From NCBI RefSeq assembly GCF_056712565.1, contig NZ_CM160072.1: DNA of 64,000 nt; one strand, written 5' to 3'. The first letter of the stretch is position 1; each line of letters begins with the position of its first letter. Positions 46,445-51,998 of the stretch are shown here, piece by piece. A model generated the notes under the pieces. The model was not told where the DNA came from and ran no database searches. It was given only the letters and a program-made list of their open reading frames with translations. The position numbers were made by a program, and so were the translations under genes.

Positions 46445-47818
46445 GTGGATCATTTGCCTATATTTTGCCAATTACGCGATCGCGACTGTCTGATTGTCGG
46501 CGGTGGTGATGTCGCGGAACGCAAAGCAAGGTTGCTGTTAGACGCAGGCGCTCGCTTAACGGTGAATGCATTAGCGTTTATTCCACAGTTCACCGCATGG
46601 GCAGATGCAGGCATGTTAACCCTCGTCGAAGGGCCATTTGATGAAAGCCTTCTCGACACCTGCTGGCTGGCGATTGCAGCGACAGATGATGACGCGCTTA
46701 ACCAGCGCGTCAGCGAAGCCGCTGAATCTCGTCGTATCTTCTGTAACGTGGTCGATGCGCCGAAAGCCGCCAGCTTTATTATGCCGTCGATTATTGACCG
46801 CTCACCGCTCATGGTAGCGGTATCCTCTGGCGGTACTTCTCCGGTTCTGGCGCGCCTGTTGCGCGAAAAACTCGAATCACTGCTGCCGTTACATCTGGGC
46901 CAGGTAGCGAAATACGCCGGGCAATTACGCGGGCGAGTAAAACAGCAGTTCGCCACGATGGGTGAGCGTCGCCGTTTCTGGGAGAAATTGTTCGTTAACG
47001 ACCGCCTGGCGCAGTCGCTGGCCAACAACGATCAGAAAGCCATTACTGAAACCACCGAACAGTTAATCAATGAACCGCTCGACCATCGCGGTGAAGTGGT
47101 GCTGGTTGGTGCAGGTCCGGGCGATGCCGGGCTGCTGACACTGAAAGGTCTGCAACAAATTCAGCAGGCAGATGTGGTGGTCTACGACCGTCTGGTTTCT
47201 GACGATATTATGAATCTGATACGCCGCGATGCTGATCGCGTTTTCGTCGGCAAACGCGCGGGATACCACTGCGTACCGCAGGAAGAGATTAACCAGATCT
47301 TGCTGCGGGAAGCGCAAAAAGGTAAACGCGTGGTGCGTCTGAAAGGCGGCGATCCGTTTATTTTCGGGCGTGGCGGAGAAGAGCTGGAAACACTGTGCAA
47401 CGCGGGTATTCCGTTCTCGGTGGTTCCGGGTATTACCGCAGCTTCTGGTTGCTCTGCCTATTCGGGTATTCCGCTCACGCATCGCGATTATGCCCAGAGC
47501 GTACGCTTAATTACCGGACACTTAAAAACCGGTGGCGAGCTGGACTGGGAAAACCTGGCGGCAGAAAAACAGACGCTGGTGTTCTATATGGGGCTGAATC
47601 AGGCTGCAACTATTCAGCAAAAGCTGATTGAATACGGTATGCCTGGTGAAATGCCGGTGGCAATTGTCGAAAACGGAACGGCAGTCACGCAGCGCGTGAT
47701 TGACGGTACGCTCACGCAGCTGGGCGAACTGGCGCAGCAAATGAACAGTCCATCGCTAATTATTATTGGTCGGGTTGTTGGCCTGCGCGATAAATTGAAC
47801 TGGTTCTCTAACCATTAA
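46445..47818 (+). CDS. cysG: Siroheme synthase (uroporphyrinogen-III methyltransferase / precorrin-2 dehydrogenase / ferrochelatase)
   Basis: 457-aa ORF with N-terminal NAD-binding domain and C-terminal methyltransferase domain. Confidence 0.97.
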
Positions 47819-47827
47819 TTTAACCAG

Positions 47828-47852
47828 GGCCAGAGAAGTCTGGCCTTTTTCG
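47828..47852 (+). terminator. Rho-independent terminator of cysG
   Basis: ggccaga-gaag-tctggcc followed by ttttt, 10 bp past the stop. Confidence 0.7.
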
Positions 47853-48069
47853 TTTACAACTCTCTTTATATATTCAGCAGATAAAAACATAACCCCTTAA
47901 TAAATATTGTCTGCTAATGGGTTATATTCACCGTTACAGCGACTTACAAAATTAAGTCAATCGCTTACTGACGCTAATTGAATATTCCTGTATCGTTCTT
48001 AATGAGCAGTCTGCTTATATTCATATAATCAATGAATATTAATTAATATATAATACATAGGGAATGTAA

Positions 48070-48237
48070 ATGAACAAATTTATTAAAGTTGCACTGGTAG
48101 GCGCAGTACTGGCTACGTTAACTGCATGTACTGGTCATATTGAAAACCGTGATAAGAACTGCTCTTACGACTACCTGCTGCACCCGGCTATTTCTATTTC
48201 TAAAATCATTGGCGGTTGCGGTCCGACTGCACAGTAA
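48070..48237 (+). CDS. yhfL: Small lipoprotein YhfL
   Basis: 55-aa ORF MNKFIKVALVGAVLATLTAC... with lipobox LTAC; below the ORF-track size cutoff. Confidence 0.7.
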   Translation: MNKFIKVALVGAVLATLTACTGHIENRDKNCSYDYLLHPAISISKIIGGCGPTAQ

Positions 48238-48279
48238 GTCTCTGACAGAAATCGGCTAACGCCGGTTTAATTGCCTGAC

Positions 48280-48315
48280 GCCCTCGGAGTTATCCGAGGG
48301 CGTATTTGTTTCTGC
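48280..48315 (+). terminator. Rho-independent terminator of yhfL
   Basis: cgccctcgga-gtta-tccgagggcg followed by a T-rich run. Confidence 0.65.
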
Positions 48316-48344
48316 ATTCTTTTCAAAAATATCGTTTACAACGA

Positions 48345-49430
48345 TTAAATGCTGGCAATACTTTCACGCAAGATCCGCAATATCGTCTCTTCACCGCTGC
48401 GATTTGGGTTAATGCGAATCGCGCAATGTTCTAACTGCGGATTCGCCTGGCGAAACGTTCCGGAAAGTCGATAAAAGAGCGGCGGGATTTCATATTTTGA
48501 CTCTGCACCAACCGGGTAAGGCAAGGCACCGAGTTTCTGCGCCTCTTCCAGCACTCTGGCGGCAATCGGCTGATGAAACTCCACAATCAATACCTTCGAC
48601 TGTGCATTGGCAATGACGGCGCTTTTCACTTCCACCACCGCGCCGCCGTTAAGCAAAGCCAGCAACCGTTCAGATACCCCCGCCTGCACCGCGTGCATCA
48701 CTGGCGCGAGCACCAGACCACGCAACACCTCTAATGCCTGCGCCCCCTGAATCTGACTGCCGCCGGAATAGAGCGTGGCGCGAATCCGGCTAATAACATC
48801 GGCATCGCCTACCACCGCACCAACGCCCTCTGGCCCAAATAGCTTGAAGCAGGAAAATGTCGACACATTCGCCCCGCATTCGCAGCCGATTCGCGCTACC
48901 TTCATCACCGCATAGTTGTCATCGGTTAACGCTGGAACACCTGCCGCGCGCAACGTTGCCAGCACGTCTGCCAGCACATAGCGGTCCTGCGGCTGCTGGC
49001 GCGTATGCTGCACCAGCGCTGCATCAGGTTGTTGCTCGTCAACAACCTGCTTCAGTGCCGACAGATCATTGAAATCAGCCGTAATGAGCGTTAGCCCCAT
49101 CTGCTCAATAATAACCCGTGTCGTCGGGTAAACAGGCGCGTCATGCACCAGAAGACGCTGCCCCGATTTGAGCAAAGCCGCCAGTGCCGCACGGATCGCG
49201 CCAGTACCCGCGCCCTGTACCAGCGCCGCGGCCTGTGCGTGAAACGCGTCAGCCAGCACCTGTTCCACACGCTGGGTAATGCGGGGCTGATTTAGCCCCG
49301 GCGTTAAGCCCAAATCACCGCAGGTAAGAAACTCGCAGCCAGGAAAATGACGGCAAATCGTGTCCACCAGCGCAAACTGCTTTTGCTGCGCCTCAATAAG
49401 CGTCAGGCTTTGCAGAGGAAACGTCTTCAT
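48345..49430 (-). CDS. yhfS: Putative PLP-dependent enzyme YhfS
   Basis: 361-aa ORF. Confidence 0.8.
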   Translation of the reverse strand: MKTFPLQSLTLIEAQQKQFALVDTICRHFPGCEFLTCGDLGLTPGLNQPRITQRVEQVLADAFHAQAAALVQGAGTGAIRAALAALLKSGQRLLVHDAPVYPTTRVIIEQMGLTLITADFNDLSALKQVVDEQQPDAALVQHTRQQPQDRYVLADVLATLRAAGVPALTDDNYAVMKVARIGCECGANVSTFSCFKLFGPEGVGAVVGDADVISRIRATLYSGGSQIQGAQALEVLRGLVLAPVMHAVQAGVSERLLALLNGGAVVEVKSAVIANAQSKVLIVEFHQPIAARVLEEAQKLGALPYPVGAESKYEIPPLFYRLSGTFRQANPQLEHCAIRINPNRSGEETILRILRESIASI

Positions 49431-49441
49431 AGGTGCCTTCC

Positions 49442-50746
49442 TTAAGCCGGAACGAACAGGCCAAGCCAGTAAAGAACATTCAGCAGGATGCCGGTGATCA
49501 TTACTGCTACGACCGGTGCCGCCATTTTCTGTACCGGACGGCCCAGGGATTCGTTGAGGAAGTAAATGGCAACCGCGATAGAGAATCCGGTATAGCCCGC
49601 CATTTTGATTGCTGCAAAGATCGAACCGACCAGCAACGCCACTTCCATCAGCATATTCATGGCGTTACGGATGTTATCCGACGCATTACGTACCGACGGG
49701 TAGCGCCCCAACCATTTGCCGATCGAACGAAGCAGCAAGACTTCCGCCGAAATAACCACTGCGCCTAATACCGCTGCAACCATCGGATTCGGCGAGAGAT
49801 AGCCCACCGCATAAACAAAGGTAAAGCCCGCAACTGCATACACACCGGTGGCTAACGCCGTGGTGGCAATCAACGGCACAAAACCCAGCCCGCGCATAAA
49901 TTCTGCCAGTGCCGCCTGGTTGATTAGTGTTTGCGATTGTTCCGGCGTTACGCCTGCGGAGTACGCTTTCTCCAGTGTGAAGATCGACACTTCACTACCG
50001 GCGAAAATCTTCATGCTGGCAACGGCAGCAATCAATGCACCCACGATGGCGATATACGGTAAGTTTTTGATAATCCGTGATGTACGCTCTTCAAACACCG
50101 ACATACCGCTGGCATCGATATCATTTTCATCACGATGACGCAGGTCATGAGTTATTGCGATCCCCAGCAGCATCACCATGCCAATAAAGATTTCGATGGA
50201 TTCAGGGTTAAGATGTGGGGAATAGCGCACTACCACCACACGAGTCATCAGTACCACCACGGCGGCGATCAGACTTTGCTTCCAGCCAAACTGGTAGAAA
50301 ATCGCCACCAACGGGAACAGTGCAAAAGCTGAAACCACCGGCGAGCTTAATTCCCCCAGGCTACCTAATACATCCACCGGTAGCGCGGTCAGCAGCTGGT
50401 TTACTGGCAACAGACAGGTGAGGATCAATATTCCCCAGATAGCACCAAGACCAAACGCCATCAGGCTGTTTATCGCCAGTACGCCGAGGATATCGGTAGG
50501 AAGAAAGAGTAACCATGCGTTGAGCAGCCCGTTTTTCAGGGTAAAAGAGATCCCCACCGAGGCCACAAAACCAATGCTCAGACCAAAAGCGATACTCCCC
50601 GCCTCGCGACGGTTCATATAGCCTTCAATCAGTTGTGGCAGGATCGGGCGGATACCGTCATGAAAAACGGCCGCCGAGCGATGCGCCAGAAGCGATGTCA
50701 TACCCGTCAGGCACGCCACCACGATAATCTGAATATACAGATCCAT
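49442..50746 (-). CDS. yhfT: Polytopic inner-membrane protein YhfT (putative transporter)
   Basis: 434-aa multi-TM ORF. Confidence 0.8.
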   Translation of the reverse strand: MDLYIQIIVVACLTGMTSLLAHRSAAVFHDGIRPILPQLIEGYMNRREAGSIAFGLSIGFVASVGISFTLKNGLLNAWLLFLPTDILGVLAINSLMAFGLGAIWGILILTCLLPVNQLLTALPVDVLGSLGELSSPVVSAFALFPLVAIFYQFGWKQSLIAAVVVLMTRVVVVRYSPHLNPESIEIFIGMVMLLGIAITHDLRHRDENDIDASGMSVFEERTSRIIKNLPYIAIVGALIAAVASMKIFAGSEVSIFTLEKAYSAGVTPEQSQTLINQAALAEFMRGLGFVPLIATTALATGVYAVAGFTFVYAVGYLSPNPMVAAVLGAVVISAEVLLLRSIGKWLGRYPSVRNASDNIRNAMNMLMEVALLVGSIFAAIKMAGYTGFSIAVAIYFLNESLGRPVQKMAAPVVAVMITGILLNVLYWLGLFVPA

Positions 50747-51121: not shown

Positions 51122-51998
51122 TTATTGGAAAAATTGAGAGGGATTTTCACGTAACATCACATCCACATCGGCCTGACTGAATCCTGACTGGCGCAATTGC
51201 GGAATAAAGGTGGTCAATAAAAAGTCATAGCCATAACCACCGTTGGCTTTTAAATGAGAGCGCCGCGTAATATCCATCGACAGCATGACGCGGTTCAGCA
51301 ACCCACGGTCACGTAGCGCATGGAGCATCGCAATGCGCTTTTCGTCCGGGTAGTAACTGTTCTTGCCGATGGTGTCGAACTGCACATACGCGCCGAGATC
51401 GATCATCTTCAAAATGTTGTCGAGATTGTCTTTCAGATCGCAGTGGCCGACGGTGACGCGCGAAAGATCAACTCCGTGGGCTTGCAACAGAGCCAGTTGC
51501 TCCAGCCCCATCGTGCTGAACGACGTATGCGTGGAGATCGGGCGTCCGGTCTGGTTATGTGCCAGCGCGGCGGCAATAAACACCTTCTCTTCCAGCGGCG
51601 TAATCTTCCCTTCGCTGGAGCCAATCTCCGCGATGATCCCGGCTTTCAGGTCAGTGCCATCGATACCCTGCTCAATTTCATCGACCATCTCCTGCGCCAG
51701 TTCCTGCACGCTGCGGGTCGCCACATGTTCCGGGAAAAACGCGTCCTGGTAATAACCGGTACAGGCCACCACGTTGATCCCGGTTTCGCGCATTACATCG
51801 AGCATAAATTGCACATTGCGCCCCATGTAACGGTTGGTCATCTCAATCACATTACGCACGCCCCGGGCCATCAGGTCGTTCATCTCCTGGCAAATGAACG
51901 CATACTGATCAAGGCGGCAGTCCGTTGTTTTTAAAGCCGGAAAGATCAATATGCAGATGCTCATGGGCAAGGGTGTAGCCCGTCGGATCAAAACTCAT
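51122..51998 (-). pseudogene. php: Phosphotriesterase homology protein Php, frameshifted near 51922
   Basis: ATG at 51998 (overlapping the yhfW stop) encodes [29 protein letters not shown] ending at 51909; the rest of the protein (DCRLDQYAFICQEMNDL...) is in another frame. Confidence 0.85.

What the first reader, a model, noticed from the sequence alone, without database searches (positions are those of the whole stretch)
48238..48345. The frl operon (frlABCDR) is apparently absent between yhfL and yhfS
From memory of the K-12 map, the ~5-6 kb frlABCDR operon lies between yhfL and yhfS. Here the yhfL terminator is followed within about 30 bp by the 3' end of yhfS, with no intervening genes. 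This is either an ancestral state (frl being an insertion in K-12-like lineages) or a clean deletion; no mobile-element scars are visible.
Basis: partly seen in the sequence, partly recalled or inferred. Interest (0 to 1): 0.35.

Follow-up and report, generated by a model that had tools for sequence, protein, structure and literature searches.

The report
Ancestral empty site lacking frl operon
This E. coli strain has no fructoselysine-utilisation (frl) operon between yhfL and yhfS because it keeps the original, never-interrupted junction; this is a common and already published trait of B2-type E. coli, so it is ordinary.

Summary
In the window, yhfL (48070-48237, +) and yhfS (48345-49430, -) converge across 107 bp. 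That gap holds only the yhfL terminator hairpin and a 30-bp spacer. K-12 carries 5,242 bp here (frlABCDR plus REP and boxC-like repeats) in place of the 30-bp spacer.

The frl-less junction is the ancestral state, not a deletion scar.
- The same adjacency, including the 30-bp spacer, is found in E. albertii, a divergent Escherichia genome and several unrelated frl-less E. coli.
- Citrobacter, Superficieibacter, Buttiauxella and Enterobacter also have yhfL directly next to yhfS.
- All three frl-carrying genomes examined share one left breakpoint immediately after the terminator T-tract. There is no target duplication, integrase or IS, so this was a single old insertion/replacement.

Among 5,426 complete E. 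coli genomes, 2,105 (39%) have the empty junction. 3,300 carry frlBCD, almost always as a single copy and always on the chromosome.

The window junction is 100% identical to that of ST95 (B2) strain SF-468. Published work already calls absence of fructoselysine degradation a hallmark of phylogroup B2.

Verdict: real, explained, already known, low interest. Side observations: a private 2-bp frameshift in php, and unusually high divergence of yhfS.

The parts
46445..47818 (+). cysG (siroheme synthase), left-flank anchor gene
   Evidence: NCBIfam NF007922 equivalog, 628 bits; 99% aa identity to K-12 CysG
47826..47857 (+). cysG intrinsic terminator-like hairpin plus T-tract
   Evidence: terminator scan
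48070..48237 (+). yhfL (55-aa YhfL-family small lipoprotein), 100% identical to K-12 YhfL
48278..48313 (+). yhfL Rho-independent terminator: 11-bp perfect stem, 4-nt loop, tail ATTTGTTTCT. Its last base (48313) is the left breakpoint of the frl insertion seen in K-12-like strains
   Evidence: the sequence is retained in both the frl-carrying and the frl-less alleles
48314..48343 (.). 30-bp ancestral spacer GCATTCTTTTCAAAAATATCGTTTACAACG. This is the only sequence that K-12-like strains have replaced with the 5,242-bp frlABCDR segment
   Evidence: Homologous spacer present in E. albertii, L017 and the frl-less E. coli O145, ZF8-1, HB42 and Yu5. No significant counterpart in the K-12 insert
48345..49430 (-). 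yhfS (PLP-dependent aminotransferase-fold enzyme). Homology to K-12 resumes one base outside its stop codon (48344). The gene is unusually divergent (91.3% nt, 96% aa to K-12)
49442..50746 (-). yhfT, the next gene of the yhfS-yhfZ cluster

Best explanation
The window carries the ancestral, uninterrupted yhfL-yhfS junction of Escherichia. In this allele the fructoselysine/psicoselysine operon frlABCDR was never inserted. Less likely, the empty allele was regained by homologous recombination with another empty-site strain. In a different, old Escherichia lineage a 5.2-kb frl cassette replaced the 30-bp spacer between the yhfL terminator and the yhfS stop codon, in a single event with no site-specific machinery. 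That insertion allele is now found in about 61% of sequenced complete E. coli genomes (K-12, BL21, O157 and others). The empty allele persists in about 39%, including the B2/ST95 lineage that this window matches. The inferred consequence is that the strain cannot take up and catabolise the Amadori products fructoselysine and psicoselysine through FrlA, FrlD, FrlB and FrlC. In the empty allele the yhfL terminator hairpin is the only structured element between the two convergent genes.
For: Shown here. (1) Gene identities and the 30 bp versus 5,242 bp difference. (2) Outgroups with direct yhfL/yhfS adjacency and no frl: E. albertii L004, divergent Escherichia L017, Citrobacter werkmanii L008, Citrobacter sp. 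L009, Superficieibacter electus L005, Buttiauxella agrestis L034 and Enterobacter sp. L038. (3) The spacer is conserved in E. albertii, L017 and four divergent frl-less E. coli. It has no significant match in the K-12 insert (385 of 2,000 shuffles score as well), so the empty allele cannot be derived from the occupied one by simple deletion. (4) K-12, O157:H7 and the divergent genome E69 share the identical left breakpoint, and K-12 and E69 share the right one, so the insertion was one event. (5) The E69 frl region is 93.5% identical to K-12, the same as flanking cysG (94.5%), so the insertion is old. (6) Population counts: empty junction in 2,105 of 5,426 genomes; frlBCD in 3,300 of 5,426 genomes, 3,301 places in all, none on plasmids, all at least 95% identical; frl-less genomes match the K-12 segment only at REP/boxC-like repeats. 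(7) No direct repeats, IS or integrase at the junction. (8) The junction is 100% identical to ST95 strain SF-468. From the literature: B2 strains lack the frl operon and are predicted not to grow on fructoselysine or psicoselysine (PMC5996543; bioRxiv 10.1101/2025.09.14.675865). The metabolic consequence for this particular strain is inferred.
Against: E. fergusonii, E. marmotae and E. ruysiae were not sampled by name. Because the insertion predates the radiation of E. coli proper (E69 result), I cannot tell whether B2 retained the empty allele continuously or regained it by recombination. The whole genome of the window's strain was not available, so 'frl nowhere else' rests on the 64-kb window, on near-complementary population counts and on the literature. 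The mechanism of the original insertion is not identified: it left no signature.
Confidence: 0.88

Rival explanations
1. A clean de novo deletion of frlABCDR from a K-12-like ancestor in the lineage of this strain.
For: frl is present in most sequenced E. coli. One paper describes its absence in O145:H28 as a 'loss' (PMC3893438). The frl-carrying allele is old.
Against: The empty allele contains a 30-bp spacer that is absent from the occupied allele but conserved in E. albertii and a divergent Escherichia genome. A deletion cannot create that sequence. All sampled empty junctions, from haplotypes 91-100% identical to the window, have the same structure. Five other genera show the same adjacency.
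Confidence: 0.03
2. Secondary loss by allelic replacement. An frl-carrying ancestor of this lineage regained the ancestral empty allele by homologous recombination across cysG-yhfL and yhfS-yhfT with an frl-less donor.
For: The insertion predates E. coli diversification (E69). O145:H28, a close relative of frl-carrying O157:H7, has the ancestral-type empty junction, so empty alleles do seem to move or persist patchily. The flanks are highly polymorphic.
Against: No recombination breakpoints were mapped. B2 is usually placed as an early-branching phylogroup (my background knowledge), so simple retention is more parsimonious. The resulting sequence is indistinguishable from retention.
Confidence: 0.09

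Closest known systems
Absence of the frlABCDR (fructoselysine/psicoselysine) operon in phylogroup B2 / ExPEC E. coli, as reported from pan-genome and genome-scale metabolic model studies (PMC5996543; bioRxiv 10.1101/2025.09.14.675865)
   Same: Same locus and same gene set missing. The window junction is identical to that of a B2/ST95 bloodstream isolate. The metabolic consequence predicted in those papers applies.
   Different: Those papers report gene presence or absence and predicted phenotype. In the passages I read they give neither the base-level junction nor its polarity. Here the junction is resolved (30 bp versus 5,242 bp) and the empty state is shown to be ancestral.
K-12 MG1655 yhfL-frlABCDR-yhfS arrangement
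   Same: The flanking genes, the yhfL terminator and the yhfS stop codon are collinear and homologous up to window 48313 and from 48344 onwards.
   Different: K-12 has 5,242 bp (a promoter region, five genes, a REP element and a boxC-like repeat) where the window has 30 bp.
O157:H7 EDL933 haplotype (yhfL-frlABCDR-trpS)
   Same: Same left breakpoint of the frl insert.
   Different: O157 carries frl (frlD is a pseudogene) but lacks the whole yhfS-yhfZ cluster, which the window retains. About 353 of 5,426 genomes lack the php/yhfW segment.
Plasmid-borne frl clusters of Pantoea (for example pPSP-057 and LPP-1-type megaplasmids)
   Same: FrlB is 87-88% identical in protein sequence. The frlA-frlB DNA is 78.6% identical and frlD-frlR 70.9% identical to K-12. 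This shows that the cassette occurs on mobile replicons in Enterobacterales.
   Different: They have no frlC and a different genomic context. They are not shown to be the donor.

Membership tests
Empty-site (ancestral) allele of an accessory-operon insertion/deletion polymorphism | The flanking genes are orthologous and collinear with those of the occupied allele | tested here: met
   cysG, yhfL, yhfS, yhfT, yhfU and php are 96-100% identical in protein sequence to K-12 and in the same order and orientation
Empty-site (ancestral) allele of an accessory-operon insertion/deletion polymorphism | The same junction is present in outgroup species | tested here: met
   E. albertii and L017 share the junction, including the 30-bp spacer. 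Citrobacter, Superficieibacter, Buttiauxella and Enterobacter have yhfL adjacent to yhfS
Empty-site (ancestral) allele of an accessory-operon insertion/deletion polymorphism | The accessory genes are absent from the rest of the genome | tested here: inconclusive
   None in the 64-kb window. Across 5,426 genomes frlBCD occurs in 3,300 genomes, almost always as a single copy (3,301 places), and the empty junction in 2,105, which is nearly complementary. The strain's own full genome was not available
Deletion scar | The junction sequence can be derived from the occupied allele (remnants of the deleted segment, or microhomology at the breakpoints) | tested here: not met
   The 30-bp spacer has no significant match in the K-12 insert and there are no frl remnants
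Genomic island or mobile element insertion site (site-specific) | Integrase or transposase, tRNA/tmRNA target, flanking direct repeats or target-site duplication | tested here: not met
   The K-12 insert contains only frlABCDR plus REP and boxC-like repeats. There is no duplication at the breakpoints. GC content is 53.8% against 54% in the flanks. The window junction has no repeats apart from the terminator
Rho-independent terminator (yhfL) | GC-rich hairpin followed by a T-rich tract directly downstream of a stop codon | tested here: met
   11-bp perfect stem with 8 GC pairs and tail ATTTGTTTCT, starting 40 nt after the yhfL stop; -23.4 kcal/mol, z = -4.8. Termination activity itself was not tested

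The most novel reading that the evidence does not exclude
The frl/empty polymorphism may be an ancient polymorphism that spans lineages. It predates the split between E. coli proper and the E69-like lineage, and the ancestral empty allele has been kept or repeatedly re-imported by homologous recombination. On this reading, reported 'losses' such as that in O145:H28 are allelic replacements rather than deletions. The adjacent, unusually divergent yhfS (9-11% nucleotide divergence between phylogroups, close to the divergence between Escherichia clades) could mark a deep-coalescing region under niche-dependent balancing selection.
Probability: 0.25. Interest if true: 0.35.

Novelty: already known. 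Interest (0 to 1): 0.1.

Why it matters
It matters little. Absence of frl is a documented marker of B2/ExPEC-type E. coli, with a predicted inability to use dietary Amadori products, so it mainly helps to place the window's strain. The small addition here is polarity. At base resolution the frl-less junction is the ancestral Escherichia state, and frl in K-12 is an old, single insertion with no mechanistic signature. So 'loss of frl' in the literature is better described as non-acquisition, or as allelic replacement.

Tried and rejected
(1) I looked for homology between the 30-bp spacer and either edge of the K-12 insert, or anywhere inside it, as a test for a target-site duplication or a shifted breakpoint. 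The AAAAATAT...TTAAAT resemblance at the left edge is not significant (385 of 2,000 shuffles score as well), and the TTAAAT motif is not conserved in the O157 or E69 inserts. (2) An Rfam scan of 47700-48500 at E <= 1 found no RNA family. (3) A repeat search at the junction found only the terminator hairpin and chance-level short repeats. (4) I tested whether yhfS alleles partition by frl status. They do not: K-12 is closer to the frl-less O145, ZF8-1 and HB42 (about 94%) than to the frl-carrying E69 (90%). Linkage to the indel therefore does not explain the yhfS divergence. (5) A plasmid search for FrlB found Pantoea plasmids at 87-88% protein identity. There was no E. coli plasmid copy apart from one mis-filed chromosome-sized record, so no donor could be named. 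(6) One pangenome paper (PMC11774025) appears to list Amadori-product degradation among genes exclusive to the B2/D-side phylons. This conflicts with the other papers and with my counts, and I did not resolve it.

Full report
**Observation.** The window carries nirB, nirD, nirC and cysG (46445-47818, +), then yhfL (48070-48237, +). These are followed on the opposite strand by yhfS (48345-49430), yhfT (49442-50746), yhfU, php and yhfW. The RefSeq annotation of a genome whose junction is 100% identical (E. coli SF-468) gives the same gene names.

The gap between the yhfL stop and the yhfS stop codon is 107 bp. It contains a perfect 11-bp-stem hairpin at 48278-48303 with the tail ATTTGTTTCT ending at 48313. 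The hairpin folds at -23.4 kcal/mol with z = -4.8 against shuffles. After it come 30 bp, GCATTCTTTTCAAAAATATCGTTTACAACG (48314-48343).

**Comparison with K-12.** In MG1655 the order is yhfL, frlA, frlB, frlC, frlD, frlR, then yhfS on the opposite strand.
- Homology with the window runs up to window 48313 (K-12 locus L001 position 9490).
- It resumes at window 48344 (L001 14733), one base outside the yhfS stop codon.
- So 30 bp in the window correspond to 5,242 bp in K-12. The K-12 segment holds the frlA upstream region, five genes, a REP-type palindrome and a boxC-like repeat after frlR (the names of the two repeats are from my own knowledge of E. coli repeat families).
- The breakpoints carry no target-site duplication, IS, integrase or tRNA.
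- The insert has 53.8% GC, like the neighbouring genes.
- The 30-bp spacer has no significant counterpart at either edge of the K-12 insert or inside it.

**Polarity.** A scan of one genome per GTDB species with YhfL returned 39 loci. I screened them by tblastn with the K-12 proteins.
- Wherever the yhfS cluster lies next to yhfL, the two genes are directly adjacent with no frl. This holds for Escherichia albertii (L004), a divergent genome labelled E. coli (L017, cysG 93.5% identical to E. coli), Citrobacter werkmanii, Citrobacter sp. FP75, Superficieibacter electus, Buttiauxella agrestis and Enterobacter sp. ENT03.
- The only fetched locus with frl downstream of yhfL, besides K-12 and O157, was another divergent genome labelled E. 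coli (E69, L003).
- In an alignment of empty junctions, the terminator and a homologue of the 30-bp spacer are present in E. albertii, in L017 and in four frl-less E. coli whose junctions are 91-95% identical to the window (O145 RM12367-C1, ZF8-1, HB42, Yu5).
- K-12, O157:H7 EDL933 and E69 all break at exactly the same base after the terminator T-tract. K-12 and E69 also share the right breakpoint.

The empty junction is therefore ancestral. The frl-carrying allele arose once, by replacement of the spacer. A simple deletion from an frl-carrying allele cannot regenerate the conserved spacer.

**Age of the insertion.** The E69 frl region is 93.5% identical to K-12, matching the divergence of the flanking cysG (94.5%). 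The insertion is thus at least as old as that split. It follows that both alleles have coexisted for a long time. I cannot tell whether a given frl-less lineage retained the empty allele or regained it by homologous recombination.

**Population frequency.**
- The contiguous yhfL-yhfS junction covers at least 80% of the query in 2,105 of 5,426 complete E. coli genomes.
- At least 80% of the 5.2-kb K-12 segment is present in 3,297 genomes. The remaining genomes match it only at the REP and boxC-like repeats.
- A sensitive blastn with frlBCD finds it in 3,300 genomes at 3,301 places, never on plasmids, always at 95% identity or more.
- The two classes are essentially complementary, so frl-less strains do not carry the operon elsewhere.
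- No Frl homologue is present in the 64-kb window.

**Literature.**
- SF-468 is an ST95 bloodstream isolate (PMC4645194). ST95 belongs to phylogroup B2 (my own knowledge).
- Fang et al. 2018 report that the fructoselysine transporter and the frl operon are missing from B2 strains. Predicted growth on fructoselysine is 0-3% in B2 classes and 69-91% in the others (PMC5996543).
- A 2025 preprint calls the absence of fructoselysine and psicoselysine degradation 'a hallmark of B2 strains'.
- Cooper et al. 2014 noted frl absence in O145:H28 and called it a loss (PMC3893438).
- The finding is therefore already known at the level of gene content. The base-level junction and its polarity are a modest refinement.

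**Mobility of the cassette.** FrlB is 87-88% identical in protein sequence to FrlB encoded on Pantoea plasmids. One such plasmid carries frlB, a kinase and a regulator with no frlC. Its DNA is 71-79% identical to K-12. This shows that frl-type cassettes travel on replicons in Enterobacterales. It does not identify a donor.

**Consequence (inferred).** The strain lacks FrlA (transport), FrlD (kinase), FrlB (deglycase), FrlC (epimerase) and FrlR. It should not use fructoselysine or psicoselysine by this route. This rests on the established pathway of Wiame and Van Schaftingen, as cited. The yhfL terminator is the only structured element between the convergent genes. No terminator-like site was found on the minus strand for yhfS.

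**Side observations.**
- php in the window has a 2-bp deletion near codon 26 that shifts the frame. No complete E. coli genome shares it: the best matches are 99.0% identical, 201 bases against 203.
- yhfS is far more divergent between the window and K-12 (91.3% nt overall; 89-93% in 300-bp windows) than the left flank (about 97%). yhfS alleles differ by 5-9% between every pair of E. coli sampled, regardless of frl status.
- O157:H7 represents a third haplotype: it carries frl, with frlD a pseudogene, but lacks yhfS-yhfZ. About 353 genomes lack the php/yhfW segment.

**Verdict.** The feature is ordinary and already described. Interest 0.1.

Noticed in passing
window 51122-51998 (minus strand), deletion at about 51921-51922: php (phosphotriesterase-related protein) has a 2-bp deletion (GT after AAAAACAAC, near codon 26) relative to K-12, which shifts the reading frame. 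None of the 5,073 complete E. coli genomes that match this stretch shares it (best identity 99.0%, 201 against 203 bases). It is either a private pseudogenisation or a sequencing error.
   Followed up: partly
window 48345-49430 (yhfS) and into yhfT up to about 50300: yhfS is unusually divergent. It is 91.3% identical in nucleotides (96% in protein) to K-12, against about 97% for cysG and nirB. Every pair of E. coli haplotypes sampled differs by 5-9%, which is close to the distance to a divergent Escherichia clade (about 90%). The divergence does not partition by frl status. It may be a region of deep coalescence or frequent import.
   Followed up: partly
L042 (E. coli O157:H7 EDL933, NZ_CP124740.1 3152906-3164111): A third haplotype at this locus. 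frlABCDR is present (frlD annotated as a pseudogene with an internal stop) but the whole yhfS-yhfZ cluster is missing, and frlR is followed directly by trpS. The php/yhfW segment is absent from about 353 of 5,426 genomes.
   Followed up: partly
L043 (E. coli O145 RM12367-C1): This frl-less strain has the ancestral-type junction, including the spacer, although the literature calls its state a 'loss'. Its yhfT is annotated as frameshifted.
   Followed up: partly
window 47819-48069 (cysG-yhfL intergenic region): An AT-rich 250-bp intergenic region: the K-12 counterpart together with yhfL is 38% GC. At about 93% identity to K-12 it is more divergent than the neighbouring coding sequence. It matches no Rfam family.
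   Followed up: partly
L003 (CP089930.1, 'E. coli strain E69'): This genome is labelled E. coli, but its cysG is only 93.6-94.5% identical to that of ordinary E. coli. It carries frl at the same site with matching divergence. It probably belongs to a divergent Escherichia lineage. Its identity was not checked.
   Followed up: no
literature (PMC11774025): One pangenome paper appears to list fructoselysine/psicoselysine degradation among genes exclusive to the phylons that contain B2 and D. This conflicts with the other papers and with the counts obtained here.
   Followed up: no
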